A DNA stretch of 64,000 nt from a virus. The position numbers and the translations under genes are program-made. This document shows positions 7,954 to 29,035 of this stretch, piece by piece. Each line of letters begins with the position of its first letter. Within the stretch, counting starts at the first letter, position 1. The DNA lies in IMG/VR virus record IMGVR_UViG_3300020420_000873, positions 6,982 through 70,981 of that record, one strand, 5' to 3'. The notes under the pieces were generated by a model. The model saw only the letters and a list, made by a program, of their open reading frames with translations, was not told the DNA's origin and searched no databases.

Positions 7954-8229
7954 ATGTTTATATCATGGAAAACAGATGGTTCTGCAGGTGCTGTAGATTT
8001 AATGAAGGGTCGTTTAGAAAACAACGATTTCAGCGATTATATCACGTGGGCATCAGTAAACGGCAGAATTAACTTCAAATATGAAATGGTTGGCGACGAT
8101 TTAGTAATCACAGAAGAGTGGAATATCGATAGAGCGGCTTATGACGCACTTGACATTGATAACTCAGACGGTGAAGGCAATCCATTACCAATGGAAGAAA
8201 CTACTGATCATTTATCATTTGATGAATAA
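7954..8229 (+). CDS. Small acidic protein with strong expression signals; candidate substrate of the cluster
   Basis: AAGGAG RBS, GATAAATA upstream, frequent TTC/AAC/ATC codons, Asp/Asn/Glu-rich. Confidence 0.8.
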   Translation: MFISWKTDGSAGAVDLMKGRLENNDFSDYITWASVNGRINFKYEMVGDDLVITEEWNIDRAAYDALDIDNSDGEGNPLPMEETTDHLSFDE

Positions 8230-8230
8230 T

Positions 8231-8250
8231 TTTAATAATTAATTATTAAA
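8231..8250. terminator. Perfect 20-bp AT palindrome between convergent genes
   Basis: TTTAATAATT|AATTATTAAA. Confidence 0.4.
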
Positions 8251-8253
8251 GGC

Positions 8254-8844
8254 TCACTGTTGTAAAAACGATGGTGAGCTTTTATAATACTCATACACAT
8301 CATTTATAGTCATACCATAATCAAAATCAAGCTGAAAACCATAACGGGTCATAGTTTCACCACCTTTGGCACTGTGTAATTGTCCTGTGTTAACTACAAC
8401 AGGATGACTGTAATATAGTGTTTTGGTTTCTTCTCTTTTATTATTATACCAAGTAATTGAACCACCTGCGGGTTTAAACTCTACAAGTAATGCTACCATT
8501 CTTTGCACATCTCTGTGAATATTTAAAAACCAACCAGGAGACATTTTTGTGTATTGTTTCCTAACAATAAGGCTTGTTGGCATGTTTAAAACTTTACAGG
8601 TATCTTTTACTATTTGTTCAACTAGCGGATTACTATTAAATTCTGCTCCATGATCAACATCTTGATAATAAACCCATTCGTTATCATTTTGATCTTCTTC
8701 AATACCTTCTTCATACGTTACTTGATGTCCTGCATAAGCTACGTCAACTTTTTGAAACTTGTCACGTAGACTATCAATTGCATTTATGTTTGCTTCGTTA
8801 TCTATTTTTAATTGTGGTAGTTCAAAATATTCAAAGTGCTTCAT
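8254..8844 (-). CDS. 2OG-Fe(II) oxygenase-like protein
   Basis: IHRD..NTGQLH..TRYGFQL. Confidence 0.7.
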   Translation of the reverse strand: MKHFEYFELPQLKIDNEANINAIDSLRDKFQKVDVAYAGHQVTYEEGIEEDQNDNEWVYYQDVDHGAEFNSNPLVEQIVKDTCKVLNMPTSLIVRKQYTKMSPGWFLNIHRDVQRMVALLVEFKPAGGSITWYNNKREETKTLYYSHPVVVNTGQLHSAKGGETMTRYGFQLDFDYGMTINDVYEYYKSSPSFLQQ

Positions 8845-9602
8845 TTTCTGTCTCCGAACTCTATTGCGTAATCTTTATATTTTTCCCAACTACGTGTTAA
8901 TGTTTCTAAATGCTTATCTGGATCAATTGACCCTGTAGTTGTAACTACAAATTTTTGTTGTTCAATTTTTTTAGCACCATGCGGACGATCTAATTCATTT
9001 AATACAAATGTGTTTGTATCCATTGGTAGTTCCATAAATTTATAATCTTTTGGATCTTGCTGTTCTAAACTTTCTGTCCAAAATAAACTAGGATCACGTA
9101 CATCATTTATCAATAATCTATAACCAGAAGGTTCCAAAGGTCTCAATGTAGAATGATCTGATTGAGATAGTCCTGGTACATCCATGTGTAAAGGTACATC
9201 TCTACGTTGTCTAATTAATTCTGCATGATTACATTGTATTGGTAGTTGTTCTATTAGTTTTACTATACCATAAAGCTCTTTTGGTAATGCAGGATTAACA
9301 TTTACTTTTCTTTTTCTAGTTAATCTGTTCAACCAACTTTCTCTAACTTTATCTGCTTTACCAAAATCATCTTCATCAAGCTGTCCTAATATACAAACTA
9401 TTCGCCAAAGTTCATGTGGTGCTGTTTCTACATAAGGTGCATTTTCTAATTTATCAGCTGAATATGATTCTGTAACTACATCTGGTGGCCACATGTAATT
9501 TCTATCGTGGAACACTTCAAGTTCATCTAAATCAATTTTTTGATAAGGCAAATCAATTGGTAGGAAACATACGTTACGAAAATCTTTATATTCTTTTTTC
9601 AT
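8841..9602 (-). CDS. 2OG-Fe(II) oxygenase-like protein (paralog of 10328..10993)
   Basis: LHMD..EPSGYR..FVLN..PHG. Confidence 0.65.
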   Translation of the reverse strand: MKKEYKDFRNVCFLPIDLPYQKIDLDELEVFHDRNYMWPPDVVTESYSADKLENAPYVETAPHELWRIVCILGQLDEDDFGKADKVRESWLNRLTRKRKVNVNPALPKELYGIVKLIEQLPIQCNHAELIRQRRDVPLHMDVPGLSQSDHSTLRPLEPSGYRLLINDVRDPSLFWTESLEQQDPKDYKFMELPMDTNTFVLNELDRPHGAKKIEQQKFVVTTTGSIDPDKHLETLTRSWEKYKDYAIEFGDRK

Positions 9603-10344
9603 CCTTGTGCCTCTTATCTAATAAAAAAGTTTTTATAATCCATGCTGGTAAATCTATTTCCCACCACTTCTCTTTGTTGTTCCAACTTTGTGGTTTTTGG
9701 TGGTGTGTGTTATGTAGCCCACTACCAAGTGTGATTAAATTTACCCATGTATTATTTGTACTTCCATCTGGTGTATTAAACAATCTGTAACCCCATTTAT
9801 GACATAATACATTTACAGCACCAGCACTATGAAATGTTATTACTGCTGGTATTGATATTAAAAATACTGCTATACGCCAATCAATTAAAGCAACGATTCC
9901 ATATACACCTAATAGTAATTTTAAATAATGTTGATGTATAAATTTAATCCATTTATCTTTAATTAAATCTTTTACAAATCTTGTTTCAATTGTAAAAGGC
10001 TCCCAGAATGTTGTCCATATTCTCCATGCTGATTGACCACCATGTGGATCTTCTTTAGTTTCAGGCACTGCGTGATGTTTTCTATGTACTCCACACCATG
10101 CAATTGGTGAACCAAAACAGTTAAACATGCTTAACACAATTAACATTCTTGATTTCCAATATGACGTTTCAAAACTTTTGTGTGATAGATACCTATGTAA
10201 AGCAATTTCGCCACCAACTTTACCAAACATAATCCAGCCAATAAGAGATAGCCATAACCAACTTAGATCTGCATACATCAAACCTACTATAAGCAGTAAG
10301 TGGTTAGCTAATAAAATTAGTTTTAATTTATATTCGTAGCTCAT
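9586..10344 (-). CDS. Membrane fatty-acid desaturase (delta-9-like)
   Basis: Three His boxes HRYLSH, HRKHH, HNTHH; DPH; WEID; TM segments. Confidence 0.9.
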   Translation of the reverse strand: MSYEYKLKLILLANHLLLIVGLMYADLSWLWLSLIGWIMFGKVGGEIALHRYLSHKSFETSYWKSRMLIVLSMFNCFGSPIAWCGVHRKHHAVPETKEDPHGGQSAWRIWTTFWEPFTIETRFVKDLIKDKWIKFIHQHYLKLLLGVYGIVALIDWRIAVFLISIPAVITFHSAGAVNVLCHKWGYRLFNTPDGSTNNTWVNLITLGSGLHNTHHQKPQSWNNKEKWWEIDLPAWIIKTFLLDKRHKDEKRI

Positions 10345-10993
10345 TCTTTTTTATAACCTGTGTATTGTATTTATTCGCACTTCGCTCTATCAACTTTTGA
10401 TGTGCAGATTTAATTACCTTTCCTAATATAAAACCAACTATACGATCGTCATCAACACCTTCTTTAACATCAACTCCATGTGGTTGTGTGCAATTGTTAA
10501 TTAAAAAAGCATCTGTTTCTTCAGGAATAGTACAAAAATGTTTAGGTTGATTGCTCATATCTTTGCTATAGTCGTAGTCTTTACACATGTATAAGCTATC
10601 GCGTGATCCACTTACTACAAATCTATAACCTATAGGTTCATTTTCTCGTTGATGATCGAACATTTCTTGCGTAATTGTCATGTGATGTGGGTGCGGTGCT
10701 TTAACATAATTACCATCCACATGTGGAGCAACATTTCCTGTTGACCTTGCTATCCTTACGTAAAATTTATATTCAAAAGGAAAATATGTATCTATCCAAT
10801 GTAATAGTTCTGGATACTTTTGTTTAGCAAAATCATTCCAAGGTTTCATTTCACCAAATGGAACTGATAGATCTTTCACTCCTAATAATGTTTCTTCTTT
10901 CCACCATGCAAACTTTTCTCCACCGATAAAATTATCTAGTATTGATTGTTTGTTTGGAATTGGTGGTATGTCTAAAGGGGTGAATACTATCAT
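10328..10993 (-). CDS. 2OG-Fe(II) oxygenase-like protein
   Basis: PHVD..EPIGYR..FLIN..PHG..R. Confidence 0.65.
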   Translation of the reverse strand: MIVFTPLDIPPIPNKQSILDNFIGGEKFAWWKEETLLGVKDLSVPFGEMKPWNDFAKQKYPELLHWIDTYFPFEYKFYVRIARSTGNVAPHVDGNYVKAPHPHHMTITQEMFDHQRENEPIGYRFVVSGSRDSLYMCKDYDYSKDMSNQPKHFCTIPEETDAFLINNCTQPHGVDVKEGVDDDRIVGFILGKVIKSAHQKLIERSANKYNTQVIKKNELRI

Positions 10994-11751
10994 CTTTGTA
11001 CAAATGCTTTCTCTACTACAAATTGTCCCGGTATAGAAGTATTTCCTTCTTGCATACCCAATGACTCAAAGTGTTCTATTAAATCTTTATTAAGACCTTG
11101 TGATCCACATATCATAAATCTATCATCTTTTGTGTCTAAACTTTGTCCTACAGTATCTGAAAACAGTCTACCATTTTTTATCCATTCAGTAATTCTTCCC
11201 TTGCGTGGCCAATCTTGTTGTGTTAATGTATTAAAGTATCTAAAGTTGCCTTGTGTAAGTGCTTTCCATTCTTCATTAAACCAATTAAGTGGCTCATGGT
11301 ATGCTAATTCATTTTCATATTGTACTGTGTGAGTAAGTATAACTTTTTCAAAGCGTTCATAGGTTGCAGGATCTTTTATTATTCCTAAGAAAGGTGCAAG
11401 TCCTGTGCCTGTTGATATCAAGTATAGATTGCGTCCAGGCATTAAATAATCAATCACAAGTGTGCCTGTTGACCTAGGATTAACTAACACTTCATCTCCT
11501 ACCTTAAGATGTTGTAATTTAGAAGTTAATGGACCATCATCAATTTTAATTGATAGAAATTCTAAATAGTCTTCATGATTAGCAGAAGCAATCGAATATG
11601 CTCTCATTATTTTCTTGCCTTCATGCTCCATGCCAATCATTGCAAATTCACCATTGTTAAATTTATTTGGATAGTTTCTCGTAGTTTTAAAAGAAAAAGT
11701 TTTATCACTCCAATGTTTTACCCAAGTTACTGTTTCTTTATTAACTGCCAT
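10990..11751 (-). CDS. fpr: Ferredoxin/flavodoxin-NADP+ reductase
   Basis: RAYSIAS, GPLTS, TGTGLAPF, MICGS, VEKAF. Confidence 0.93.
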   Translation of the reverse strand: MAVNKETVTWVKHWSDKTFSFKTTRNYPNKFNNGEFAMIGMEHEGKKIMRAYSIASANHEDYLEFLSIKIDDGPLTSKLQHLKVGDEVLVNPRSTGTLVIDYLMPGRNLYLISTGTGLAPFLGIIKDPATYERFEKVILTHTVQYENELAYHEPLNWFNEEWKALTQGNFRYFNTLTQQDWPRKGRITEWIKNGRLFSDTVGQSLDTKDDRFMICGSQGLNKDLIEHFESLGMQEGNTSIPGQFVVEKAFVQR

Positions 11752-12965
11752 TAAACGTTCCTCGTGTTACCATATTCAACAACTGTACAATTTTCTATTT
11801 GTGGACATTGTCTCCAAGGGTCAACAATAATTGATCCTTTTGGAAAATCATATTTGGCTTTATCATCTGTGCCATATGTTACCTTTGGATTGTGTGCTAA
11901 TAGATAAACTGCTGTGCCTAAATCTTTAGGAGGTGTATCACCTGTGTGTTCATCTTTGTAATACAATGTTCTACCTGCTTTTTCAATGTAGTGTCCAATA
12001 AGCAAACTGTATGATCCGTTAGTGTAAGGCACGTGAGGTTTATATGCTTTACCTACAATTACAATTGGCAAATTGTATGACATTAATTTTTTAGCAAGAT
12101 TTTCTGCTTGTACTTCTCTAGCACCCATGATAGCATCAAACAAATCATAACCTAAGCCTAAATGGTCTGCCATCCAACGTAATGCAATATTATCTCTTGG
12201 GTGACAAGCACCACCATCTCCCATACCTGCTGTCATATATTTTGGTCCCATGATACGCATGTCTGAATATGCAAGTGCAGAAGTTACCACATCAACATTG
12301 ATGTTACCTTGTTTTTCTGCTACATCTTGAATCATGTTTACCAAACCAATCTTTGCTGAAATAAATGTGTTGTAAAATATTTTAATTGATTCACATTCAT
12401 CCCAAGTACCAACTACATACCTTGGACTGTTTTGCATCATTGGTTTGTAAAAATCAATAAGTTCTTTGGCATCACCTGTCTTTGATCCATCTTCTGTTCC
12501 AATCATAATCATTTCAGGATTAACCATATCCCATTTTACTGAACCCATGGCAATCAAATAAGGATTGTATACAAAACGTGCATTAGTAATTAATGGCTCT
12601 AGTTCACGTCTTGTTGTGCCTGGTAGTACAGTTGATATAAGAACCACTAGTTGTTTTTTATTCACAAACTGATTAACTTCTTGCAAAATATTTTTTACAA
12701 TTGTGTAATCAAAATCTTTTGGTTCTAAATGTGCTGTTGGTGTCGAACCATCATAACGTGGATCATGTGGTGTTGGTGCCGCAATAAAAACAATGTCTTT
12801 GTCTTTTACTGCTTCAGCAATAGATCCTTTCATTGCAAAATTTTCTGGCTTTCTTGGCTCTACGTCATAACCTTCAACCATATATTGTTGTGCCATTACT
12901 TCTGCACAATCTTGTCCAAGTTTACCGCAACCTATCATTGCGACTTTTGTATTTTTTAATTTCAT
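11751..12965 (-). CDS. UDP-glucose/GDP-mannose dehydrogenase family
   Basis: GCGKLG, PTP, STVLPGTT, K..YN, GGACHPRD. Confidence 0.9.
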   Translation of the reverse strand: MKLKNTKVAMIGCGKLGQDCAEVMAQQYMVEGYDVEPRKPENFAMKGSIAEAVKDKDIVFIAAPTPHDPRYDGSTPTAHLEPKDFDYTIVKNILQEVNQFVNKKQLVVLISTVLPGTTRRELEPLITNARFVYNPYLIAMGSVKWDMVNPEMIMIGTEDGSKTGDAKELIDFYKPMMQNSPRYVVGTWDECESIKIFYNTFISAKIGLVNMIQDVAEKQGNINVDVVTSALAYSDMRIMGPKYMTAGMGDGGACHPRDNIALRWMADHLGLGYDLFDAIMGAREVQAENLAKKLMSYNLPIVIVGKAYKPHVPYTNGSYSLLIGHYIEKAGRTLYYKDEHTGDTPPKDLGTAVYLLAHNPKVTYGTDDKAKYDFPKGSIIVDPWRQCPQIENCTVVEYGNTRNV

Positions 12966-14446
12966 GAATATACCCTCACTTTGTGTTTTTGTTCAAATGC
13001 ATCTGCATGTTGTCTTGTATTTACTAACGGCTCACCTTTGATATTAAGACTGGTGTTTAGTAACATTGGACAACCTGTTTCATCATAGAACTTTTTAATT
13101 AAATTATAAAATCCTGGTGCCTCTTTTTGTGTAACAGTTTGTACACGTGAAGTACCATCAGCATGTATTATTGCTGGAAACTCTTGTGGCTTTCTACATA
13201 TAGCAACTGCCTGCATGTATGGAGACTCTGTAATACCGCCAGGCATTGTAAAATACTCATGTACATGTTCTTCAAGTATGGCAGGAGCAAAAGGTCTAAA
13301 CTTTTGTCGTTTTTTAATATCGTTTACTCTGTCTTTGATTTCACCTCCCCTTGGGTCTGCTAATAAACTTCTATTACCTAATGCCCTTGGCCCAAACTCT
13401 GCTTTACCACTTGCTACTCCTATGATGTTTCCATTTATAAGAGCTTCACAGGCAGAATCCACAGGATAATTACCTTCTATGTTTGTACCTAAAAAAGGAC
13501 CTTGCCAATTTACTTTGTCACCATAACCTAATGCGGCCGCTCCTAACGAGTTACCTGCATCACCTGGATTAGGCATGATCCATATGTTTTTGTTTTTATT
13601 ATACAGCAATGAGTTAGCTACACAATTAAGTGCTACTCCTCCCATCCACACAATATTTTTTTGTGAACTGTAAGTACTTGCTATCTCAAATAATTTAAGA
13701 ATTTTCTTTTCAATAACCTGTTGTATTGATGCCGCAGTATCATATTTAAATTGTTCATCAATCATAGGTATATGAGGCATCCAATCTTGTATACCAGCAT
13801 GAACGTTTTGAGTTAACTTCAATGGATCACGTTTATCAAAAAAATGATCTTCAATTTGTTTTGCATACTTTGGTTCACCATACGCCGCCATACCCATTAA
13901 AATATATTCTTCTTCATTTGCTTTTAGTCCGACTCTTTGAGTAAATGCTGAATACAATAAACCTAGTGAATGTGGGTACTGATACGTTTTTAATCTTTTT
14001 AAATTATTTGGTGCTGTGTATTCCCATATTGATATAGTATCAAACTCTCCAATAGCATCAGCAACAATAACACAGGCACTGTTGTAAGGTGATGTGTATG
14101 CTCCGGCGGCCGCATGTGCTTTGTGATGTTCTACATATTCTAACTTATGTGGTATCATATGTTGAAACTGTTTCATATACATTTTTGGTAGATTGCAAGA
14201 TTGAAATACCTCACCCCATTGACCTGCAACCATTTGTCTGCGTTTTTTTAGCCACGGTCTTTCATGCCATATAACACGATCTGGATCACCATATTCCAAT
14301 GCTTCATTTATCATTTCATTACATAAGTCAGAGTCATTTTTAATTCTTGTGTATCTTTCTGTGTGTCCGGCAAATACTATTTCGCCATCTTTAACTACAG
14401 ATAAAGATCCATCATGGCCCAATCCACATATACCCCAAATTATCAT
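12962..14446 (-). CDS. NodU/CmcH-type carbamoyltransferase
   Basis: HD, ERYTRIK, HHKAHAA, GGVALNC, EFGPRALGNRS, FRPFAP, LLNTSLN. Confidence 0.93.
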   Translation of the reverse strand: MIIWGICGLGHDGSLSVVKDGEIVFAGHTERYTRIKNDSDLCNEMINEALEYGDPDRVIWHERPWLKKRRQMVAGQWGEVFQSCNLPKMYMKQFQHMIPHKLEYVEHHKAHAAAGAYTSPYNSACVIVADAIGEFDTISIWEYTAPNNLKRLKTYQYPHSLGLLYSAFTQRVGLKANEEEYILMGMAAYGEPKYAKQIEDHFFDKRDPLKLTQNVHAGIQDWMPHIPMIDEQFKYDTAASIQQVIEKKILKLFEIASTYSSQKNIVWMGGVALNCVANSLLYNKNKNIWIMPNPGDAGNSLGAAALGYGDKVNWQGPFLGTNIEGNYPVDSACEALINGNIIGVASGKAEFGPRALGNRSLLADPRGGEIKDRVNDIKKRQKFRPFAPAILEEHVHEYFTMPGGITESPYMQAVAICRKPQEFPAIIHADGTSRVQTVTQKEAPGFYNLIKKFYDETGCPMLLNTSLNIKGEPLVNTRQHADAFEQKHKVRVYS

Positions 14447-15834: not shown

Positions 15835-15835
15835 A

Positions 15836-20180: not shown

Positions 20181-20209
20181 TTGCACAATATGATAAATAT
20201 GTGTATAAT
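20181..20209 (+). promoter_or_regulatory. sigma70-type promoter with a nested GATAAATA late box
   Basis: TTGCAC-N17-TATAAT; spacer contains GATAAATA. Confidence 0.55.
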
Positions 20210-20233
20210 AATGTTTATTAGGAGAACAAATCA

Positions 20234-21049: not shown

Positions 21050-21353
21050 AACAGAAATAAAAGAATCAAAAATACACGGACAAGGAAGGTTTGCTTTAGA
21101 AAACATTCCGATCGGCAGAAGAGTAGTTGAGCTCAAAGGTGCAATTGTTCCTAAAGAAGAAGCTCCTGGAAAATTTCCGGTTAGTTTAACACATAACATG
21201 AACTGTGATGATAGCTACGTTAATCATAGTGAAGATTCAAATCTTGCTTACCTAGGTGGTACTAGTTTTATTGCTTGTAAAAATATTAAAAAAGGCGATG
21301 AACTTACTATGGACTACAGCCAATTTGCTGGCGATAGAAAATTTTTGTTTTAA
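21027..21353 (+). CDS. SET-domain methyltransferase
   Basis: SKIHGQG.FA, YVNHS, IKKGDELTMDY. Likely start MPNQW. Confidence 0.85.
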   Translation: MPNQWLFKTEIKESKIHGQGRFALENIPIGRRVVELKGAIVPKEEAPGKFPVSLTHNMNCDDSYVNHSEDSNLAYLGGTSFIACKNIKKGDELTMDYSQFAGDRKFLF

Positions 21354-22806: not shown

Positions 22807-24587
22807 TATCTTTCACTCCCTATAGCAACTGCTTCAGTTGGTTTAATACGAGCGTCTGTACCATACATGCTCATATCAAATTCTTTTTTCCATTGTGCTA
22901 CATCATATTTAACCAATTTTTCCGGAAACACTTTTGATAAGTCTTCTACAAACTGATCTTGATTATGCCAGAATTGATATATTTCATCAGCTCTTAAACA
23001 TCTTGAAAAATACAAATAAGTCGCTAAATCTTTTACTTCTGTTCTTGGTTCGTCTTTAAATATGTTTCTAATTATTTGTCTGTTCTTTTCTACTAATTTA
23101 ATCATTAAAGGCATTTTATCTAAATGTTTATAAAACCATTTAGCCTGAAACTGTATATCATGCTGTGTGTCAAATAGATCTTTCATTGTATGACTTAATG
23201 CTCTTGAGTTGTGAAAATTATGATAGAACCACCAATAGTCAAACATACGAACTACTTCATCTTCGTCGTATGAAAAACATCTGTGCATGATTTCTATTTC
23301 TTCAAACTCATACGTGCTACGTTCATCTCTGTACTCTGGATGTTTATGTAATTGTTTATAACCAAGTCCTGAAAAAGAATATGGAAAAGCAAGTATTTTA
23401 GATTTGACTTTGTGTTCTTTTTGAAATTTGTCTGTGTACAATTCTGTGTTTGGTACTAAATTTAAAAAGTACGAACGCATAAAATCAATACCAAGTTCAT
23501 AATCTTTGTTCAATGAATACAACCAACTATCTGCTGTTTCACCTGGTAATGCAATAATCATTTCACTTGTTACTGGTAATCCTTTTGATTTAAAACTATC
23601 AATTAAAGGTACAAGTTTATCATTGTTAATGTTTGCTCTGTTAATAACTTTAAGTGTATCTTTTGCATGTGTTTGAAAACTTACTTTTAAATTACGTTGA
23701 TCAGCATCTAAGTTATTGTGTATGATATCTATAATTTCTGGTAACCATTTGCTACCATTCTTTGCAAGTCCGCTGTAAGATATTTTAGGATTATTGCCTG
23801 TTGCTTCTTTGTTTGCTTTCATTTTTTTAACAACATCTAAATCTCTTGGTAACATACCAAAGTTAGCATCAAGTATTTCTACTTCTGCTATGTTTGTGTG
23901 TTTGTATATAAAATCTAATTGTTCATTGACAGGATCCATATCAAACTTTGTAACTTTGGATCTTGCTTGTCCTCCCCAATCACAAAACGCACATTTAAAA
24001 GGACATCCACGATTGGTTTCAAATGATGCTTTTACTCTTTTTTCTTCTGCTAGTATAGAATCAAACACTCCGTCTAAATATGGTGTAGGCATTTCGTCAG
24101 TTCCAATTTGATAAAGTTTACGTCCTACTTCTACATTATTCCAGCCTAATCCAAAACTACCATCATGTGTACTCATAGGAGCATCTATATTTTGTAAAAA
24201 CTTGCTAACTAACTTTTCACCAGGACCGACCCAAAATATATCTATGTAAGGATGATCTTTTGCAAACTGTTCTGCAAGTTTAGGATCTTCAGGTACATTG
24301 GGTCCACCATACATTGTGATTCCATTTGGATTAATATCTTTATAGTGACTCATCATTTGATCATTGTATGCCTGATTCCAAACGTAACACGTCAAACCAA
24401 ATACATCTATGTTTTTAAATTGTTCTGTGTATTCTTCTATAGGTTTGTATTTGTATAAAGGTTCATTAAACTTGTACTTTGATTTTATTTCAGGTATCTT
24501 GTTACAGTAACTTATAAGGCACGCCGCGGCATATGGCAACCATGTTTCATGAATAACTGAAATTGTACCTAGTTGGACCGTCTTCAT
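22806..24587 (-). CDS. Cobalamin-binding radical SAM enzyme
   Basis: N-terminal B12-binding-like region (GLTCYVWN, GGP, GPGE), then ETNRGCPFKCAFCDW, DANFG, LPGET. Confidence 0.88.
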   Translation of the reverse strand: MKTVQLGTISVIHETWLPYAAACLISYCNKIPEIKSKYKFNEPLYKYKPIEEYTEQFKNIDVFGLTCYVWNQAYNDQMMSHYKDINPNGITMYGGPNVPEDPKLAEQFAKDHPYIDIFWVGPGEKLVSKFLQNIDAPMSTHDGSFGLGWNNVEVGRKLYQIGTDEMPTPYLDGVFDSILAEEKRVKASFETNRGCPFKCAFCDWGGQARSKVTKFDMDPVNEQLDFIYKHTNIAEVEILDANFGMLPRDLDVVKKMKANKEATGNNPKISYSGLAKNGSKWLPEIIDIIHNNLDADQRNLKVSFQTHAKDTLKVINRANINNDKLVPLIDSFKSKGLPVTSEMIIALPGETADSWLYSLNKDYELGIDFMRSYFLNLVPNTELYTDKFQKEHKVKSKILAFPYSFSGLGYKQLHKHPEYRDERSTYEFEEIEIMHRCFSYDEDEVVRMFDYWWFYHNFHNSRALSHTMKDLFDTQHDIQFQAKWFYKHLDKMPLMIKLVEKNRQIIRNIFKDEPRTEVKDLATYLYFSRCLRADEIYQFWHNQDQFVEDLSKVFPEKLVKYDVAQWKKEFDMSMYGTDARIKPTEAVAIGSER

Positions 24588-25192
24588 ATTACCTCTGCAA
24601 CATTATCTATAACACCATCGTGCTTGTATTTTATAATTGATTTAGTTGGTTCCCATTTATAATTTGGATCTATGTAGTAGCTATATACAAATTGTATCAT
24701 ATCCGACTTAGGCGAATCATGAAACACAAAGTCTTTTTCTAATGTTAATTTTTTATAATCTTCATCGTCAAACCAACTGTTATCACCACCCACATATTTT
24801 TTCTTATGTTGAAACAGTTCATTAATTGCTTTGTCATTGACATCATGCGTCCAATAGTAATGTTTGAATCCATTTTCTTTTGCCCAAGCAATTTGATGTT
24901 TCATCATTTTAAATCCATAACGTCCATGCCTATATTTTTTTAAAATATGATATCTGCATTTTCTAATTGATTCAGGTGTTCCTGTAATAAAACTTCTTTC
25001 AGCATAACTTATACTAGCAACTGTACCTTCGACTATTGCTAACCATAAACTGCTTTGATCATCTAGATCATCTATATCAAATTTGTTTTCCGCATAAGTT
25101 CCTGCACTTCCTTCTTGTTTTGCTTTGGCAAGAAAGTCTTTTACCATATGTTTGTGTGATAGATTGTATTGTACAATTTCTTCCATGTTCAT
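24584..25192 (-). CDS. GNAT-family acyltransferase
   Basis: ILKKYRHGRYGFKMM..AWAKENGF resembles motif A. Confidence 0.7.
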   Translation of the reverse strand: MNMEEIVQYNLSHKHMVKDFLAKAKQEGSAGTYAENKFDIDDLDDQSSLWLAIVEGTVASISYAERSFITGTPESIRKCRYHILKKYRHGRYGFKMMKHQIAWAKENGFKHYYWTHDVNDKAINELFQHKKKYVGGDNSWFDDEDYKKLTLEKDFVFHDSPKSDMIQFVYSYYIDPNYKWEPTKSIIKYKHDGVIDNVAEVI

Positions 25193-25840
25193 TTACTTGT
25201 ACCATGATTCAACGGATATATTTTTTATATGAACGTTGCTTGGTTGATTGATTATATAAAATACTGATTCAGCCAACTTCTCTGATGATATTGGATTTAT
25301 TCCCATTGGTATAGTCCTTTTATATTCTGGTACTTTATCAAATAGTCCTGTATCAACCCATCCTGGTCTTACTATAGAAACTTTACATTTGCCCCTGCCA
25401 TAAACACCAAAGTTATCAACTATTGATTCTAAAGCAACTTTCTGATGATAGTAACTTTTATCTTTTTCAATTTTTTCATTGTGATCTTTTGCTGTTGATC
25501 CTATGTTGATTATTAGTTTATTTTTCTTTTGCCACAAATTATAAACTGCATATAAAAGATCTATTTGAGCCCATTGCAAATGAGCATTATTAATGAATAC
25601 ATCATAATCTTTTATTTCTTTTAAAAATCTTTGTGTATCTTCTGACCATTCAAATTGTTGTTTATCATCAACTTTATCATCTGATGTATATACTTTTCCA
25701 ATGTTTTTTAAATTAAATCCAGTTACACGACTAAAGCCTACCATATCGTGGCCATAGCTTTCTCCCATTTCATAAATGGCTTTACCAATTCCTGAAGTGT
25801 GTCCTGTTATTGCAATTTTATACTTTGACTTTGGATCCAT
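25193..25840 (-). CDS. SDR-family oxidoreductase
   Basis: TGHTSGIG, FINNA, NIGS, YYHQK, PGWVDT. Confidence 0.85.
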   Translation of the reverse strand: MDPKSKYKIAITGHTSGIGKAIYEMGESYGHDMVGFSRVTGFNLKNIGKVYTSDDKVDDKQQFEWSEDTQRFLKEIKDYDVFINNAHLQWAQIDLLYAVYNLWQKKNKLIINIGSTAKDHNEKIEKDKSYYHQKVALESIVDNFGVYGRGKCKVSIVRPGWVDTGLFDKVPEYKRTIPMGINPISSEKLAESVFYIINQPSNVHIKNISVESWYK

Positions 25841-26591
25841 TTTTTACCTCTAATAATTTTATAAACCAGCCGCCTACATCAATTTCCCACCACTTGTATT
25901 TAAAACTCGCATTGTTAGGATTTGCATGATGATTGTTGTGCCAGCCTTCTCCCCACATTAATATTCCTAGTAAAGGAATATTAGTTGAGTTATCAGAAGT
26001 TTGGTGATTTCTATATCCAATCATGTGTGTAAGAGTGTTAATAAATGATCCTGCATTCCACAGTATCATTGCTGGAAACAAATAAGCTGACACTAACAAC
26101 ATTGGATCAATCATATACCATGTTCCTGCAATTGCTAGATGTATTAAGAAATAATATCTGTGTGTGAATAGATGAAATTTATTTCTAATAAGTTTAACAA
26201 CATACCTTGGATTAGGTGTGTCAAACATGCTTAACCATTGTACTTTTAAAAAACCTTTGTAGGTCGGCGAGTGCGGATCATCTTCACTATCAGTGTGTAC
26301 ATGATGTTCTCTATGAATAGCTACCCATCCTATAGTTGACCCAGTTAGACCATATGTGCCTGCTAAAGATCCAAAATAATGAAACCACTTAGGTGCTTTC
26401 CAACTTGCATGACTTAACAATCTATGATATGTCATAGTCATACCAAAGCATCCTGTGATAAAATATACAAAAAATGCTATCGCCCAATGATACCAAGAAC
26501 CATACATAATCATTGGTATGATACTTAGATGTGCGATCAATTGAGCAATGAACAAAAAGTATTGATCTTTAGTTGTTTTCTGCGTTTTCAT
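25818..26591 (-). CDS. Membrane fatty-acid desaturase (delta-9-like)
   Basis: HRLLSH, HREHH, DPHSP, GEGWHNNHH, WEID. Confidence 0.92.
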   Translation of the reverse strand: MKTQKTTKDQYFLFIAQLIAHLSIIPMIMYGSWYHWAIAFFVYFITGCFGMTMTYHRLLSHASWKAPKWFHYFGSLAGTYGLTGSTIGWVAIHREHHVHTDSEDDPHSPTYKGFLKVQWLSMFDTPNPRYVVKLIRNKFHLFTHRYYFLIHLAIAGTWYMIDPMLLVSAYLFPAMILWNAGSFINTLTHMIGYRNHQTSDNSTNIPLLGILMWGEGWHNNHHANPNNASFKYKWWEIDVGGWFIKLLEVKNGSKVKV

Positions 26592-26643
26592 GGTTTTCCT
26601 TTATTAACACAATTATAACAATATTTATCCTATTTCACAAGTG

Positions 26644-28506
26644 TTAAAATTTCATTTTCCAGCCAATAGTAATATTTCTACCACCTTGGTTATAACCATC
26701 TGGACGCTCATAATGATCATCTGTTATGTTTTTTACATTTAAAACAATTTCAGAATCCTGTGTTAAATAGTAACCTGCTGTAAGATCTCCAGTAGTTCTT
26801 TCTTTAACTGTAATTGTTGACCAATTGCCAGAATCAATATCTCTATGATCACCATAGTACAATATGCTAGGGCTAATATAGTAGTTGTCTTTAGCATAAG
26901 TTATACCAGATCTGATAATTGTATGAGGTCTACGTTTTAACCAAGTACCCGATGAATCTTCAGCTGATGATAATGCAATATTGTTAACAAAACTAAAGTT
27001 ACCTACATAATAATTAAAGTCAATGTCGGCACCTTTCATAGTAGATACACCATTGCTATCATTACTATAAGTTGAATTAGAATATGTAATCATATCTTCT
27101 ACATCTGTTGAGTAAAGAGCTATGTCAAACATGTGTGACTTACCTTTGTTATTGTATCCTATTTCTCTACTTACTGACGTTTCTGGTTTAAGATTTGGAT
27201 TACCTGTATAACCATAGTTGTCTGCTCCATACATTTCATATAGTGTTGGTGATTTATAACCAGTTGATTGACTTATACGAAATCCATTGTATGAAGTACC
27301 AATTGAATATGTCGACTGACCATTTGCAATCGAGTGTTCGTCATATCTTACACCACCTGAAATGATAAAGTTGTTTTCAAATGAGTAATCAAAACTATGA
27401 TAAGTTCCTATTACAGATGCTGACTTGTCAACCGTTGAATTATAACTGCCTGTGTTGTTAAAGTCTACATCAAATCCTGTTGCATCTACACCTGTTTTTG
27501 TTGACAACTTATCTGAACTTGTTATCCAATCAAGTGATCCATGTGTAGCAACAGAATCGTAACTATCTATTTCAGTTCCGTTGACATATTCTCTATCCCA
27601 CATTGTATGATCAACAACTGTTTTTATTTTTCCATACTTTACATCAGTTGATGTTTGCATTTGTCCAAAATAAAATTTAGTTTCATTTGTGTAATCTAAA
27701 TCATCTGCACCTGAGGCATCAATATCTGCGTTGGTTGTATTTGTTACTCCTGTAAATTTTATTTGAGTATCATCAAGAGTTACAATATGTCCAAAGTTGA
27801 ACCCTAACACGTCATAGCCATCTGGTTCAGTACCTTTTGGATAGACTGATATTCCATCTGATCCTTCTGCATATATACCAAAATTAAAATAATCTTTTCC
27901 ATATGTGTAAGACATTGTATTAGTATCATGCGAACCATGTGATAATGATATCTCATTTCTTTTGTAATCAGAAGTTTGAATATCAATTACTCCACCAACT
28001 GCATTAGGTCCATAGTTAGTACTCATTGGTCCTGTGTATAGATGTAATCCATCTGCAAAGTGTATGTTAATATTATTTAAATCTGTAGCACCATTGGTTG
28101 TTGAGTAATCAGTTATTGCTGATCCATTAATTGTTACAAGTGTGTGATTTGAATTGGTTCCTCTTGTAAACAAAGATGTTTGTTGTCCAGCTGGACCTGA
28201 TCTAACTGCATTAAAACTTGGTGCATCTTCTAATGCTTCTGATAATATACTTGATCCTTCTTTCTTTTCGTCATCTAACCAAATAAAAGTATCTGTATAA
28301 ATTTGGTCTGCTTTCTGTGATGATGTCATTGTATGAAAAACTGGAATATCAATCACTAGTGCATCACACACGATTGTTTCATCTTTCATTTCTTCCCAGT
28401 AACATAAACGTTCATCTGCCTGTGCAGGCTTTATTAAAAATGCTACAAGTAGGATGGCCAGTACGATCACACCTCTACCTATATGCCTTTGATTTTCACT
28501 GTTCAT
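26644..28506 (-). CDS. BtuB-like TonB-dependent outer-membrane receptor
   Basis: Signal peptide (AQA), plug SLFTRGTNSNHTLVTING, YG.NAVGGVI, PTLYEMY..GNPNLKPE, LKRRP, terminal Phe. Confidence 0.85.
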   Translation of the reverse strand: MNSENQRHIGRGVIVLAILLVAFLIKPAQADERLCYWEEMKDETIVCDALVIDIPVFHTMTSSQKADQIYTDTFIWLDDEKKEGSSILSEALEDAPSFNAVRSGPAGQQTSLFTRGTNSNHTLVTINGSAITDYSTTNGATDLNNINIHFADGLHLYTGPMSTNYGPNAVGGVIDIQTSDYKRNEISLSHGSHDTNTMSYTYGKDYFNFGIYAEGSDGISVYPKGTEPDGYDVLGFNFGHIVTLDDTQIKFTGVTNTTNADIDASGADDLDYTNETKFYFGQMQTSTDVKYGKIKTVVDHTMWDREYVNGTEIDSYDSVATHGSLDWITSSDKLSTKTGVDATGFDVDFNNTGSYNSTVDKSASVIGTYHSFDYSFENNFIISGGVRYDEHSIANGQSTYSIGTSYNGFRISQSTGYKSPTLYEMYGADNYGYTGNPNLKPETSVSREIGYNNKGKSHMFDIALYSTDVEDMITYSNSTYSNDSNGVSTMKGADIDFNYYVGNFSFVNNIALSSAEDSSGTWLKRRPHTIIRSGITYAKDNYYISPSILYYGDHRDIDSGNWSTITVKERTTGDLTAGYYLTQDSEIVLNVKNITDDHYERPDGYNQGGRNITIGWKMKF

Positions 28507-29035
28507 ATATGCCTTTCCTATTAACTATCATTAGATAGATATTGTTGAAAGGTCGAGATAACGCCACTGTTAAAGATACCATCAAAGCAGTATACACCAC
28601 TGTACCTAAAATTGTATTTTGGAAAAATGGTATTGCCATTGTATAACACATTATCAATCCTTCTAATGTATTAGGATAGTAATCCCACATAATCCAAACA
28701 GCAAAATTTGTTACTATGTAAAATAACACAGATGATAATAGCGTCATTATCGCTAATGATACATATTTTCTTCCAAACTGCATAGCCCATTTACTAATCA
28801 CAGTTGACATTGCTATTGCTCCGTACACCCATAACATATAGGAATGAAATCCAATAAACACATCTCCAATGAACATTGCCATTAATGGTACTGCCATTGC
28901 CATCCAACGATCATTAATGATGTATGGTGCAAATATAGCCGCGGCCAATATGGGTGTAAAATTTGGAGGATGTGGTATGAGTCTACCTAAGGCAAGAATG
29001 CCAGAAATATATAAAAACGATAATATAATCTTCAT
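28496..29035 (-). CDS. DUF6580-like putative vitamin transport membrane protein
   Basis: RLIPHPPNFTP..SSVLFYIVTNF.VW..YP..GLIMCY..AIPFF.N. Confidence 0.75.
   Translation of the reverse strand: MKIILSFLYISGILALGRLIPHPPNFTPILAAAIFAPYIINDRWMAMAVPLMAMFIGDVFIGFHSYMLWVYGAIAMSTVISKWAMQFGRKYVSLAIMTLLSSVLFYIVTNFAVWIMWDYYPNTLEGLIMCYTMAIPFFQNTILGTVVYTALMVSLTVALSRPFNNIYLMIVNRKGIYEQ

What the first reader, a model, noticed from the sequence alone, without database searches (positions are those of the whole stretch)
7954..29035. Phage-encoded ~21 kb tailoring-enzyme cluster with its own vitamin importer and no scaffold synthase
Seen: a mostly overlap-coupled run of 7 2OG-Fe(II)-type oxygenases, 3 twitch radical SAMs, a B12 radical SAM, 2 desaturases, FNR, UDP-sugar dehydrogenase, carbamoyltransferase, 2 SDRs, a PLP enzyme, SET and GNAT. 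No NRPS, PKS or glycosyltransferase is present. Known: these are tailoring families of RiPP and natural-product clusters. Inference: a pathway that heavily modifies a ribosomal protein or peptide (possibly a virion component), or a host lipid or surface molecule.
Basis: partly seen in the sequence, partly recalled or inferred. Interest (0 to 1): 0.88.

Follow-up and report, generated by a model that had tools for sequence, protein, structure and literature searches.

The report
Jumbo-phage enzyme island with B12 importer
A giant uncultured ocean phage carries a packed block of about two dozen oxidising, methylating and radical enzymes together with what looks like its own vitamin B12 uptake pair and electron supply; the block is real and conserved, but it is built from separable modules and its product is still unknown.

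Summary
Window 7954-29035 carries 24 genes. 15 of the 19 same-strand junctions overlap, and 20 of the 24 genes show purifying selection.

The window is part of a 71-kb fragment of a marine jumbo myophage. A complete relative is 328 kb.

New here:
- **The run is not one pathway.** In a 342-kb relative it splits into two blocks more than 90 kb apart. One holds the N-twitch radical SAMs, the carbamoyltransferase and the NDP-sugar dehydrogenase. The other is an operon of desaturase, PLP enzyme, oxygenases, B12-radical-SAM, SET and SDRs.
- **The importer reading is supported.** The same receptor-DUF6580 pair sits behind a cobalamin riboswitch in 7 of 9 cellular loci. It is adjacent in 18 of 22 distant viral contigs.
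- **An electron supply is present.** The phage also encodes an FNR and a flavodoxin.
- **No glycosyltransferase was found.** GT1 and GT2 families are absent even from the complete relatives.

The substrate is unknown. I favour small-molecule, sugar or lipid tailoring over a ribosomal peptide. This scan has met the radical-SAM cassette before on other DNA (57 findings).

The parts
7954..8229 (+). g01, a 91-aa acidic ORF of unknown function. It is not reliably linked to the enzyme modules.
   Evidence: No Pfam or NCBIfam family. Homologues at 57-64% identity in G003 and G001, 30% in G002, none in G005. dN/dS 0.15-0.17.
8254..8844 (-). g02, a putative AspH-like cupin / 2OG oxygenase. Found only on this contig among the four close relatives.
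   Evidence: HxD...H seen by eye. Atlas feature hits at 0.93-0.96 to viral Asp/Asn beta-hydroxylase-like clusters. No Pfam hit. No homologue in G001-G003 or G005.
8841..9602 (-). g03, a divergent paralogue of g05 (Fe/2OG oxygenase-like).
   Evidence: hhalign against the g05 family gives 96% probability over the C-terminal half. HxD...H seen by eye.
9586..10344 (-). g04, a membrane di-iron desaturase of delta-9 type.
   Evidence: PF00487 at 6.1e-15. Three His boxes and hydrophobic segments. 88% identical in G003.
10328..10993 (-). g05, an Fe(II)/2OG oxygenase fold.
   Evidence: AF2 model with pLDDT 74.1. All Foldseek top hits are Fe/2OG oxygenases. H91, H172 and H198 are invariant in A4.
10990..11751 (-). 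g06, an Fpr-type ferredoxin/flavodoxin-NADP+ reductase.
   Evidence: PF00175 + PF00970. NF008178 at 2.8e-38, below its cut-off.
11751..12965 (-). g07, an NDP-sugar 6-dehydrogenase-like enzyme (module 1).
   Evidence: PF00984 + PF03721. TIGR03026 at 1.6e-38, below its cut-off. Found in 27 of 74 carbamoyltransferase loci. 64% identical in G005.
12962..14446 (-). g08, a NodU/CmcH/TobZ-type carbamoyltransferase (module 1).
   Evidence: PF16861 at 1.8e-54 and PF02543 at 1.1e-38. 74 viral loci. 147 phage records.
14443..14964 (-). g09, a short SDR-like protein and paralogue of g21.
   Evidence: Weak NCBIfam SDR hits at 7.7e-7. Cross-hits with g21. 52% identical in the G005 module 2 operon.
14965..15834 (-). 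g10, a short fold-type I PLP enzyme (HisC/CobD-like fold).
   Evidence: AF2 model with pLDDT 73.8. Foldseek gives 787 matches at E <= 0.001, led by aminotransferases. K185 and D158 are invariant.
15836..16522 (-). g11, an AspH-like cupin.
   Evidence: PF05118 at 0.0014 and Cupin_2 at 0.00034, both below cut-off. hhalign to g15 at 71%. 43-44% homologues next to the receptor in L204, L206 and L208.
16495..17661 (-). g12, a radical SAM enzyme with a C-terminal Cys group (module 1).
   Evidence: PF04055 at 1.4e-12. CX3CX2C at 45/49/52 and Cys 313/335/356/361. 69% identical in G005.
17652..18872 (-). g13, an N-terminal-twitch radical SAM (NF033640).
   Evidence: NF033640 at 1.7e-95, 320 bits against a cut-off of 170. 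N-terminal SPASM hit.
18865..20133 (-). g14, an N-terminal-twitch radical SAM (NF033640).
   Evidence: NF033640 at 1.3e-76, 258 bits.
20234..21049 (+). g15, an Asp/Asn beta-hydroxylase-like cupin.
   Evidence: PF05118 at 7.5e-6, above cut-off. 40% identical in the G005 module 2 operon.
20979..21353 (+). g16, a small SET-domain methyltransferase. The true start is probably downstream of 20979.
   Evidence: PF00856 at 3.9e-8, above cut-off. Relatives align over 105-116 of 124 residues. 36% identical in the G005 module 2 operon.
21350..22048 (-). g17, a 2OG-Fe(II) oxygenase (P4H-like family).
   Evidence: PF13640 at 3.9e-7, above cut-off.
22039..22806 (-). g18, a paralogue of g17.
   Evidence: Reciprocal tblastn hits at 31-34% identity, E 1e-30 to 1e-35. 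HxE...H seen by eye.
22806..24587 (-). g19, a class B (cobalamin-type) radical SAM and likely C-methyltransferase.
   Evidence: NF033712 KedN5 family at 5e-45, far below its cut-off. PF04055 at 2.2e-10. PF02310 at 0.0018, below cut-off. 92-94% identical in close relatives and 45% in G005.
24584..25192 (-). g20, a GNAT acyltransferase.
   Evidence: PF00583 at 1.4e-5. 39-41% homologues in L204 and L208. No hit in G005.
25193..25840 (-). g21, a short SDR.
   Evidence: adh_short at 1.4e-5, below cut-off.
25818..26591 (-). g22, a delta-9-type membrane desaturase.
   Evidence: PF00487 at 7.7e-15. His boxes seen. 74% identical in G005. 31% identical to a Pelagibacter phage Mosig gene.
26644..28506 (-). 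g23, a BtuB-like TonB-dependent outer-membrane receptor with a signal-peptide-like N-terminus.
   Evidence: Plug + barrel. TIGR01779 at 1e-52, below its cut-off. Best PDB match is E. coli BtuB at 7e-23, full length. Hydrophobic segment at residues 6-32.
28496..29035 (-). g24, a DUF6580 membrane protein and putative inner-membrane cobalamin transporter.
   Evidence: PF20221 at 3.9e-44. Four hydrophobic segments. Adjacent to the receptor in 18 of 22 distant viral loci and in 9 cellular loci, 7 of them behind a cobalamin riboswitch.
58371..58811 (-). A flavodoxin gene 30 kb away, the likely partner of the FNR.
   Evidence: PF00258 at 4.2e-28 at G000:65397-65777. Not found in G003 or G005.
2444..6153 (.). 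They are an AspH-like gene (2444-3034, -), an N-twitch radical SAM (3929-5083, +) and a radical SAM-like gene (5104-6153, +).
   Evidence: PF05118 at 1.2e-10; PF04055 + SPASM. NF033640 matches.

Best explanation
The run is a composite auxiliary-enzyme island of a marine jumbo myophage. It is built from three separable parts.

(1) Module 1 is a local copy of a phage-wide cassette. It holds N-terminal-twitch radical SAM enzymes (g13, g14 and g12), a NodU/TobZ-type carbamoyltransferase (g08) and an NDP-sugar dehydrogenase-like enzyme (g07). It most likely edits a sugar- or nucleotide-sugar-like small molecule.

(2) Module 2 is a second operon. It holds delta-9-type desaturases (g04, g22), AspH-like and P4H-like Fe/2OG oxygenases (g02, g03, g05, g11, g15, g17, g18) and a cobalamin-type radical SAM methyltransferase (g19). 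It also holds a short PLP enzyme (g10), two short SDRs (g09, g21), a SET methyltransferase (g16) and a GNAT (g20). I infer that it oxidises, desaturates and methylates a lipid- or amine-bearing envelope molecule of the infected cell.

(3) The third part is a cofactor supply. A BtuB-like outer-membrane receptor plus a DUF6580 membrane protein (g23, g24) would bring in cobalamin for g19. An Fpr-type FNR (g06) with the phage's flavodoxin (58371-58811) would pass NADPH electrons to the radical SAM clusters, the desaturases and the corrinoid.

Shown: gene content, conservation, modularity, and the cobalamin-regulon membership of the cellular receptor-DUF6580 pairs.

Inferred: the substrates, the direction of electron flow, and that the phage receptor still carries cobalamin.
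For: Modularity.
- In G005 (342 kb; DNA polymerase 55% identical) homologues of g07, g08, g12 and the N-twitch radical SAMs lie at 5-32 kb and 319-342 kb.
- Homologues of g22, g10, g15, g19, g17, g05, g16, g09 and g21 form one overlapped minus-strand operon at 121.9-131.0 kb.

Module 1 recurrence. Around 74 viral carbamoyltransferase loci (69 of them outside the close relatives L001-L004 and L069):
- N-twitch radical SAMs occur in 42 loci (121 proteins), the dehydrogenase in 28 and a g12-like gene in 16.
- Among the distant loci, module 2 genes are nearly absent: g10-like in 5, g19-like in 2, desaturase in 1.
- Neighbours there include a DegT aminotransferase, a class II aldolase-like gene and a shikimate-DH-like gene.
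- G003 holds 15 NF033640 members above cut-off and the own 71-kb contig holds 4.

Importer.
- E. coli BtuB is the best solved match, at 7e-23.
- Of 80 cellular receptor loci, 9 have DUF6580 directly after the receptor: 8 Pelagibacteraceae single-cell genomes and 1 Zixibacteria MAG.
- 7 of these 9 carry an AdoCbl-II or Cobalamin riboswitch just upstream.
- In the 2 such loci whose flanking proteins I scanned with Pfam (L096, L118), B12-binding radical SAMs sit beside the pair.
- In IMG/VR, 18 of 22 distant receptor loci keep DUF6580 adjacent.
- L204, L206 and L208 place the pair beside g11-, g10-, g05-, desaturase- and (L204, L208 only) GNAT-like genes.
- In the complete G003 the ribonucleotide reductase is class I (NrdA + NrdB). 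Of the B12-enzyme types I looked for, g19's ortholog is the only candidate found.

Electron supply. FNR and flavodoxin. That Fpr/flavodoxin reduces radical SAM enzymes in E. coli is established knowledge, recalled here.

Desaturase precedent. Cyanophage delta-9 lipid desaturases are described in PMC5776448 (abstract read).

Genes are functional. dN/dS is 0.04-0.34.

The phage is widespread. 17 runs hold at least half of the sampled words, and the 20 holding rows come from 15 studies.
Against: - No substrate is identified by any search.
- The four families best represented in module 2 (AspH-like, P4H-like, SET, GNAT) are best known as protein modifiers. This favours the rival reading.
- The AspH-like proteins have no hydrophobic segment, unlike what I recall for the membrane lipid hydroxylase LpxO.
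- g19's cobalamin dependence is not firm. PF02310 reaches only 18.5 bits against a cut-off of 32.1. A six-frame search of G000 and G003 found no B12-binding domain at E <= 0.01. NF033712 scores 154 bits against a cut-off of 700.
- Only 1 of 22 distant receptor loci has a g19-like gene within 10 kb. G005 has g19 but neither the receptor nor DUF6580.
- The phage receptor scores far below the BtuB equivalog cut-off (180 against 600 bits). It is only 27-30% identical to the riboswitch-controlled cellular ones.
- No riboswitch precedes the phage genes.
- The flavodoxin is absent from G003 and G005.
- No GT1 or GT2 glycosyltransferase exists to attach a sugar product.
Confidence: 0.45

Rival explanations
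1. It is a protein- or peptide-modifying battery. The AspH-like and P4H-like hydroxylases, SET, GNAT, B12-radical-SAM and twitch radical SAMs would decorate a ribosomally made substrate. That substrate could be a virion protein such as the repeat-rich 1628-aa tail fibre, a host protein, or a small precursor.
For: - PF05118, PF13640, PF00856 and PF00583 are families whose best-known members act on proteins (family knowledge recalled).
- SPASM/twitch radical SAMs and class B radical SAMs include many peptide maturases. Weak NCBIfam hits of g12-g14 to such maturases appear.
- The island lies 11 kb from a 1628-aa tail fibre that carries about ten repeats of an Asn/Asp-rich motif.
Against: - No precursor travels with the enzymes. 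g01 is absent from G005, which has both modules. In G001 it sits on the other side of the cluster.
- Pfam reports no PqqD/RRE-type domain in any radical SAM here.
- In NF033640 proteins the N-terminus is taken by the Cys cluster.
- In distant loci the cassette's neighbours are sugar-type enzymes.
- Desaturases, FNR, NDP-sugar dehydrogenase, carbamoyltransferase, SDRs and the PLP enzyme have no role in this reading.
- The tail fibre has no collagen-like repeats that would suit a P4H.
Confidence: 0.22
2. There is no common product. The island would be a hypervariable depot of unrelated auxiliary genes (lipid desaturases, hydroxylases, a vitamin importer, radical SAMs), each acting alone on host metabolism. 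They would be packed together only because this genome region tolerates insertions.
For: - The run splits into two blocks in G005.
- Gene gain and loss occurs among the four close relatives. g02 and g03 are unique to this contig. G002 carries three extra g05 paralogues. G003 has extra SDRs and radical SAMs. g22 is moved in G001.
- Radical SAM paralogues are scattered over G003 and G005.
- A single desaturase is a stand-alone AMG in cyanophages (PMC5776448, abstract).
Against: - Module 2 keeps a translationally coupled operon form, with much the same families, in G005 at 25-74% protein identity. Part of it recurs beside the importer in L204, L206 and L208.
- Module 1 genes recur together in dozens of contigs.
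- 15 of 19 junctions overlap.
Confidence: 0.2
3. It is a nucleotide or DNA hypermodification pathway. The oxygenases, radical SAMs, PLP enzyme and carbamoyltransferase would build a modified base or nucleoside that protects phage DNA or poisons the host.
For: - The best fold matches of g05 are a nucleoside-antibiotic hydroxylase, AlkB-type DNA repair oxygenases and PolD.
- Phages are known to hypermodify bases with radical SAM and PLP enzymes (recalled).
- The window also holds a TGT/DpdA-like gene at 51334-52860.
Against: - The DpdA-like gene is 22 kb away, among replication genes.
- No nucleotide kinase, hydroxymethylase or base transferase was seen in the 24 proteins.
- The fold matches are weak (E about 1e-4, TM 0.4-0.6) and generic for the fold.
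- Desaturases, the importer and SET are unexplained.
Confidence: 0.08

Closest known systems
NCBIfam NF033640, N_Twi_rSAM (twitch domain-containing radical SAM protein)
   Same: g13 and g14 pass the curated cut-off (320 and 258 bits against 170). The CX3CX2C motif and the N-terminal Cys set are invariant across 31 aligned viral members.
   Different: I found no member with a described function. The phrase search returned 6 papers, none of whose titles or abstract openings describe this family (listing only). Here the family is expanded to 4 members above cut-off in 71 kb and 15 in the complete relative.
E. coli BtuB, with the riboswitch-controlled receptor-DUF6580 pairs of Pelagibacteraceae
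   Same: Plug plus 22-strand-type barrel of BtuB size. BtuB is the best solved match. The gene pair with DUF6580 is the same as in cellular loci behind AdoCbl-II or Cobalamin riboswitches.
   Different: It is encoded by a phage. It is 27-30% identical to the cellular receptors. It has no riboswitch. The order is DUF6580 first, then the receptor, as in the other viral loci. It falls below the BtuB equivalog cut-off. DUF6580 has no solved relative by sequence or profile.
Cyanophage delta-9 lipid desaturases (vFAD; Roitman et al., PMC5776448)
   Same: A phage-encoded FA_desaturase family enzyme with delta-9-type His boxes (abstract read).
   Different: There are two paralogues about 31% identical to each other. 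They are embedded in an operon with oxygenases and an FNR. Cyanophage records gave no tblastn match at E <= 1e-5; the only true phage match is Pelagibacter phage Mosig at 31%. Activity is untested.
Class B cobalamin-dependent radical SAM methyltransferases (KedN5 family, NF033712)
   Same: This is the best NCBIfam match of g19, at 5e-45 over the B12 and radical SAM core. The CX3CX2C motif sits at 195/199/202.
   Different: The score is far below the family cut-off. The B12-binding domain is only weakly detectable. No match was found in 50,697 phage records. There are 3528 metagenomic relatives at E <= 1e-10, none with an informative name.
Phage radical-SAM tailoring islands noted earlier in this scan (for example e1-6058217, e1-5967871, e1-5320243)
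   Same: The same cassette of N-twitch radical SAMs, carbamoyltransferase, UGDH-like enzyme, SDR and 2OG oxygenase in large uncultured phages.
   Different: Here there are few radical SAMs in the run itself and no glycosyltransferase anywhere in the complete relatives. The run also adds a second oxygenase/desaturase/B12-radical-SAM module and a cobalamin importer pair.

Membership tests
NF033640 N_Twi_rSAM | Whole-protein score above the curated cut-off (170 bits) | tested here: met
   g13 scores 320 bits and g14 258 bits. g12 gives only 38.6 bits over the core, so g12 is not a member.
NF033640 N_Twi_rSAM | N-terminal auxiliary-cluster Cys set followed by the CX3CX2C radical SAM motif | tested here: met
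   C6, C24, C64, C67 and C117, C121, C124 are invariant in 31 sequences.
NF033640 N_Twi_rSAM | Reductive SAM cleavage and a defined substrate | not testable with these tools
   Needs biochemistry. The phrase search turned up no characterised member (listing only).
TonB-dependent vitamin B12 receptor (TIGR01779 / BtuB) | Plug domain plus beta-barrel, of BtuB-like size | tested here: met
   PF07715 at residues 81-173 and PF00593 at 182-594. Full-length alignment to BtuB chains.
TonB-dependent vitamin B12 receptor (TIGR01779 / BtuB) | Score above the equivalog cut-off | tested here: not met
   179.6 bits against 599.7, and 123.1 against 836 for PRK10641. I therefore file it as BtuB-like, not as BtuB.
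TonB-dependent vitamin B12 receptor (TIGR01779 / BtuB) | Membership of a cobalamin regulon (riboswitch) | tested here: inconclusive
   The phage copy has no riboswitch at gathering score or at E <= 1. Cellular receptor-DUF6580 pairs have one in 7 of 9 loci.
TonB-dependent vitamin B12 receptor (TIGR01779 / BtuB) | Cobalamin binding and transport | not testable with these tools
   Needs complementation or binding assays.
Fe(II)/2-oxoglutarate oxygenases (cupin/DSBH) | HxD/E...H metal triad | tested here: met
   Seen by eye in g02, g03, g05, g11, g15, g17 and g18. Invariant in the g05 family. The motif definition is recalled.
Fe(II)/2-oxoglutarate oxygenases (cupin/DSBH) | Family model above cut-off, or a DSBH fold | tested here: met
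   Met for g15 and g17 by Pfam and for g05 by fold. g11 is below cut-off. g02, g03 and g18 are supported only through paralogy, a feature search and the motif.
Class B cobalamin-dependent radical SAM methyltransferase | N-terminal B12-binding domain | tested here: inconclusive
   PF02310 at 0.0018, 18.5 bits against a cut-off of 32.1. No six-frame match in G000 or G003. NF033712 aligns over positions 62-391 of 624 at 5e-45.
Class B cobalamin-dependent radical SAM methyltransferase | CX3CX2C radical SAM core | tested here: met
   PF04055 at 2.2e-10. Cys at 195/199/202.
RiPP biosynthetic cluster | A precursor peptide gene that travels with the maturases | tested here: not met
   g01 has no hit in G005, which holds both modules, and is displaced in G001. 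Smaller ORFs were not screened exhaustively.
RiPP biosynthetic cluster | RiPP recognition element (PqqD-like) in or beside the maturases | tested here: not met
   No such Pfam family at E <= 0.01 in any of the proteins scanned. Divergent RREs could be missed.
Membrane delta-9 fatty-acid desaturase | FA_desaturase model above cut-off and three His boxes | tested here: met
   56.1 and 55.8 bits against a cut-off of 29.7. HRxxSH, HRxHH and HNxHH seen. Assignment of the motif to delta-9 enzymes is recalled.
Membrane delta-9 fatty-acid desaturase | Desaturation at C9 of an acyl chain | not testable with these tools
   Needs expression and fatty-acid analysis, as done for the cyanophage enzymes (PMC5776448, abstract).
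Fold-type I PLP enzyme | Aminotransferase-like fold with a conserved Schiff-base lysine | tested here: met
   Foldseek E 1.8e-9 to HisC-like chains. K185 invariant in 9 sequences. At 289 aa it is shorter than usual, and residues 1-51 are modelled poorly.

The most novel reading that the evidence does not exclude
A cosmopolitan jumbo phage, possibly of SAR11-type hosts, would make itself independent of its host's cofactor status. It would install its own outer-membrane cobalamin receptor and a DUF6580 inner-membrane transporter. DUF6580 would then be an unrecognised cobalamin transporter family. The phage would also bring its own NADPH-FNR-flavodoxin chain. Together these would run a battery of B12-, iron-sulfur- and iron-dependent enzymes that turn a host envelope lipid or sugar into a new, heavily oxidised and methylated compound made only in infected cells.
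Probability: 0.3. Interest if true: 0.85.

Novelty: new variant of a known kind. Interest (0 to 1): 0.68.

Why it matters
Phage auxiliary genes are usually single enzymes that patch a host pathway. Here a phage commits at least 21 kb to two multi-enzyme modules plus what looks like the uptake of a scarce vitamin and an electron supply.

If the importer works, three things follow:
- It would be the first case I know of where a phage encodes an outer-membrane vitamin receptor. None of the 50,697 phage records searched holds a true one.
- It would give DUF6580 a function. No paper in the library mentions that family.
- It would tie ocean B12 economics to viral infection.

The radical SAM family involved has no characterised member, yet it reaches 15 copies in one phage genome. 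The phage's DNA is near-identical in runs from many marine studies, so whatever it makes is made widely.

Tried and rejected
- **g01 as precursor.** Rejected as a linked substrate. It has no homologue in G005 and is displaced in G001.
- **Collagen-like target for the P4H-like enzymes.** No G-X-Y runs were found in the tail fibre or in any ORF of the contig.
- **Class II (B12) ribonucleotide reductase as the client of the importer.** G003 and G005 have NrdA + NrdB, which is class I.
- **BtuM identity for DUF6580.** There is no PDB match with either a single sequence or an 8-sequence profile at E <= 10. No relation is shown.
- **Ferredoxin (Fer2).** None in G000, G003 or G005.
- **PEP mutase in the phage.** Considered after the SAR11 loci but not searched.
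- **Sphingolipid-like pathway (PLP + SDR + GNAT + desaturase).** Considered. The g10 fold hits are led by HisC/CobD-type enzymes, and no alpha-oxoamine synthase appears among the top rows printed. It is kept only as a thought.
- **Host assignment.** The best cellular receptor hits are Pelagibacteraceae at 27-30%, and the only true phage match for the desaturase is a Pelagibacter phage. An FNR search in 5 such genomes found nothing. This is too weak to name a host.
- **Transcription.** Contigs from RNA libraries of two studies cover 29, 26 and 13 of 30 bins of window 9101-29100. Contigs cannot show transcription and DNA may be present in those libraries. I count this only as compatible with expression.
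- **Direct PDB sequence searches.** Searches with g10, g05 and g13 gave nothing useful.
- **Annotation of Ralstonia phage RsoM2USA around its carbamoyltransferase.** All entries are 'hypothetical protein'.
- **Literature.** Searches were seen as listings only. One search was an abstract. One search was passages, and the btuB mentioned there belongs to the host. No paper found describes this island, a phage-encoded BtuB or DUF6580. Supplements were not opened and may hold gene tables that I could not see.

Full report
**What the DNA is.** The window is the last 64 kb of a 70,981-base viral record. Its large genes match phage families: DNA polymerase phrog_262 at 8.8e-198, tail-fibre families and an ATP-dependent protease. 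By tblastn the polymerase is closest to jumbo phages of 350-490 kb. Sinorhizobium phage Phosso is 50.7% identical, and Atu_ph07, GAP32 and CBB are about 43%. A carbamoyltransferase scan of IMG/VR found close relatives. One of them, G003, is a 328,149-base genome with direct terminal repeats, rated 100% complete. The whole 71-kb contig is collinear with G003 between about 27 and 103 kb. The finding therefore lies in a fragment of a marine jumbo myophage. Seventeen public runs hold at least half of the sampled 31-mers of window 19200-29100. The 20 holding rows come from 15 studies, and one sample may be the source of this DNA.

**Checking the observation.** One search gives 24 gene models in 7954-29035. 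Of the 19 same-strand junctions, 15 overlap, 3 abut and 1 has a 52-nt gap. Pfam names 17 of the 24 proteins at E <= 0.01, and NCBIfam refines several. The named proteins are:
- two FA_desaturase proteins, both with delta-9-type His boxes;
- an Fpr-type FNR;
- an NDP-sugar dehydrogenase-like protein;
- a NodU/CmcH-type carbamoyltransferase;
- two NF033640 N-twitch radical SAMs above cut-off, plus a third radical SAM with a C-terminal four-Cys group;
- a KedN5-like cobalamin-type radical SAM;
- SET, GNAT and an SDR;
- a BtuB-like TonB receptor and DUF6580.

The seven proteins that Pfam leaves blank were resolved as follows:
- g18 is a paralogue of g17, and g09 is a paralogue of g21.
- g03 is related to g05, with hhalign at 96%.
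- A model of g05 matches only Fe/2OG oxygenases.
- A model of g10 has an aminotransferase fold with an invariant lysine.
- g02 has the HxD...H motif and an Atlas feature match to viral AspH-like clusters.
- g01 stays unknown.

dN/dS against the three close relatives is 0.04-0.34 in 54 pairs covering 20 genes, so these are working genes.

No ORF in the run exceeds 620 aa. No GT2 or GT1 glycosyltransferase is found in any of five related records, including the complete one.

The boundaries are loose on the left.

**Is it one pathway?** Synteny among the four close relatives (60-95% protein identity) says little, because their whole genomes are collinear. The informative comparison is G005, a 342-kb relative rated 92% complete whose polymerase is 55% identical. 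There the genes fall into two places.
- The dehydrogenase (64%), the carbamoyltransferase (52%), g12 (69%) and 14 N-twitch paralogues lie at 5-32 kb and 319-342 kb.
- A separate overlapped minus-strand operon lies at 121.9-131.0 kb. It reads desaturase (74%), g10-like PLP enzyme, g15-like hydroxylase, B12-type radical SAM (45%), g17-like and g05-like oxygenases, SET, and two SDRs. Five ORFs there match no gene of the run; one matches an ORF upstream of the window.
- The FNR sits alone at 145 kb.
- The receptor, DUF6580, GNAT, g01 and g02 are missing.

The distant loci agree with this split. Around the carbamoyltransferase in 74 viral loci the recurring partners are N-twitch radical SAMs (42 loci, 121 proteins), another radical SAM family (39), two unknown families (41 and 31) and the dehydrogenase (28). 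Other neighbours are DegT-, aldolase- and shikimate-dehydrogenase-like genes. Module 2 genes are nearly absent there. I therefore read the 21-kb run as two interleaved modules plus supply genes, not as one pathway with a missing scaffold.

**The importer.** The receptor has a plug and a barrel. Its best family is TonB-B12 at 1e-52, far below the equivalog cut-off. Its best solved match is E. coli BtuB at 7e-23 over the full length. Its N-terminus has one hydrophobic segment, followed by what I read as a signal-peptide cleavage site and a TonB-box-like stretch; both motifs are recalled. DUF6580 has four hydrophobic segments, no solved relative and no mention in the paper library.

A scan of 185,579 species genomes with a receptor alignment gave Pelagibacteraceae single-cell genomes as the best hits, at 27-30%. 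In 9 of the 80 loci kept, DUF6580 follows the receptor directly. Eight of these are Pelagibacteraceae and one is a Zixibacteria MAG. Seven of the nine carry a cobalamin-class riboswitch just upstream: six AdoCbl-II and one classic Cobalamin.

In the 2 of these loci whose flanking proteins I scanned with Pfam (L096, L118), the pair sits beside B12-binding radical SAMs (three in L118, one in L096). Nearby are PEP mutase, a TPP decarboxylase, NeuB and an rRNA operon. By recall this looks like the SAR11 hypervariable surface island. tblastn with g19 also hits L099.

DUF6580 was found in 32 of 121 sampled genomes of that family, most of them incomplete. In IMG/VR the receptor occurs in 26 contigs, and 18 of the 22 distant ones keep DUF6580 immediately upstream.

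No true phage in 50,697 records has the receptor, DUF6580 or g19. The full-length hits are bacterial contigs. One, labelled a phage, carries trpA, accD and folC.

**Weak points of the importer reading.** These must be stated plainly:
- g19's B12-binding domain is barely detectable.
- Only 1 of 22 distant receptor loci has a g19-like gene within 10 kb.
- G005 has g19 without the importer.
- The phage genes have no riboswitch.

On the other side, three distant contigs place the pair next to g11-, g10-, g05- and desaturase-like genes, and two of them (L204, L208) also carry a GNAT-like gene. This links the importer to module 2 as a whole. The relatives' ribonucleotide reductase is class I, which removes the obvious alternative client.

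**Electron supply.** g06 is an Fpr-type FNR. The contig also encodes a flavodoxin at 58371-58811 but no plant-type ferredoxin. By established knowledge, NADPH-Fpr-flavodoxin reduces radical SAM clusters and corrinoids in E. coli. The contig has 8 radical SAM genes, and G003 has 15 N-twitch members plus 6 weaker matches. The flavodoxin is absent from G003 and G005, so it is an extra and not a fixed part of the system.

**What it does.** No call identifies a substrate.
- For module 1, the sugar-type neighbours in distant phages favour a sugar-like small molecule. So do the substrate classes I recall for NodU/TobZ enzymes and for several twitch radical SAMs.
- For module 2 the evidence is ambiguous. 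The desaturases (the best-conserved genes of the module), the FNR, the SDRs and the PLP enzyme point to lipid or amine chemistry. AspH-like, P4H-like, SET and GNAT families point to proteins.

I prefer non-ribosomal envelope or small-molecule tailoring (0.45) over protein or peptide modification (0.22), a depot of unrelated genes (0.20) and nucleotide modification (0.08).

**Relation to earlier work.** This scan has noted the radical SAM cassette 57 times in at least 55 genomes. Those follow-ups also filed it under NF033640 with an unknown product. New here are the module 2 operon, the cobalamin pair with its riboswitch-based support, the FNR-flavodoxin pair, and the absence of GT1/GT2 glycosyltransferases from complete relatives. 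The searches found no paper that describes any of this.

**Verdict.** It is a new variant of the phage auxiliary-gene island, and interest is 0.68.

Noticed in passing
window 58371-58811 (-): A flavodoxin gene (PF00258, 4.2e-28) lies beside the replication genes. It is present on this contig but was not found in the complete relative G003 or in G005.
   Followed up: partly
L118 3861-12702; L096 1234-10376: In Pelagibacteraceae single-cell genomes, an AdoCbl-II riboswitch precedes a receptor-DUF6580 operon. In L118 the operon continues into two B12-binding radical SAMs. It sits beside PEP mutase/cytidylyltransferase, a TPP decarboxylase, NeuB and the rRNA operon. This looks like a cobalamin-dependent, phosphonate-type surface island.
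   Followed up: partly
G003 (whole genome) and G005: The complete 328-kb relative holds 15 NF033640 radical SAMs above cut-off, scattered from 74 to 296 kb. The 342-kb relative holds a similar number.
   Followed up: partly
window 29084-29091 (-), 47530-47537 (-), 6377-6384 (-): TATAAATA occurs only 3 times in 64 kb, against 8.8 expected from shuffles. One copy lies 49 nt upstream of the DUF6580 start codon, which would fit a T4-type late promoter.
   Followed up: no
window 40280-45166 (-): A 1628-aa tail-fibre protein in the G+C-richest part of the window. It carries about ten copies of an Asn/Asp-rich 'NLYFTNARADAR'-like repeat and several poly-Gly runs, but no collagen-like repeats.
   Followed up: no
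phage collection record CAKLQH020000002.1 (L189): A 254-kb record labelled 'Acinetobacter phage MD-2021a' carries trpA, trpB, accD, folC, btuB and baeSR. It is evidently a bacterial chromosome contig.
   Followed up: yes
window 14943-14965: A DNA run labelled with an organism name (X5, coded) holds the stretch at about 13x. It has 379 extra letters between g09 and g10, the same junction that is longer in G001 and G003.
   Followed up: no
window 3929-6153 (+), 34413-35435 (-): Radical SAMs here come in two mirror forms. One has the auxiliary Cys group N-terminal (C..CC..CxxC before CX3CX2C). The other has it C-terminal (C..CC..CxxxC after CX3CX2C).
   Followed up: partly
G002 (L085 12624-15518): The g05-type oxygenase is present as four tandem paralogues (38-78% identical to g05) in one close relative, against one or two elsewhere.
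   Followed up: no
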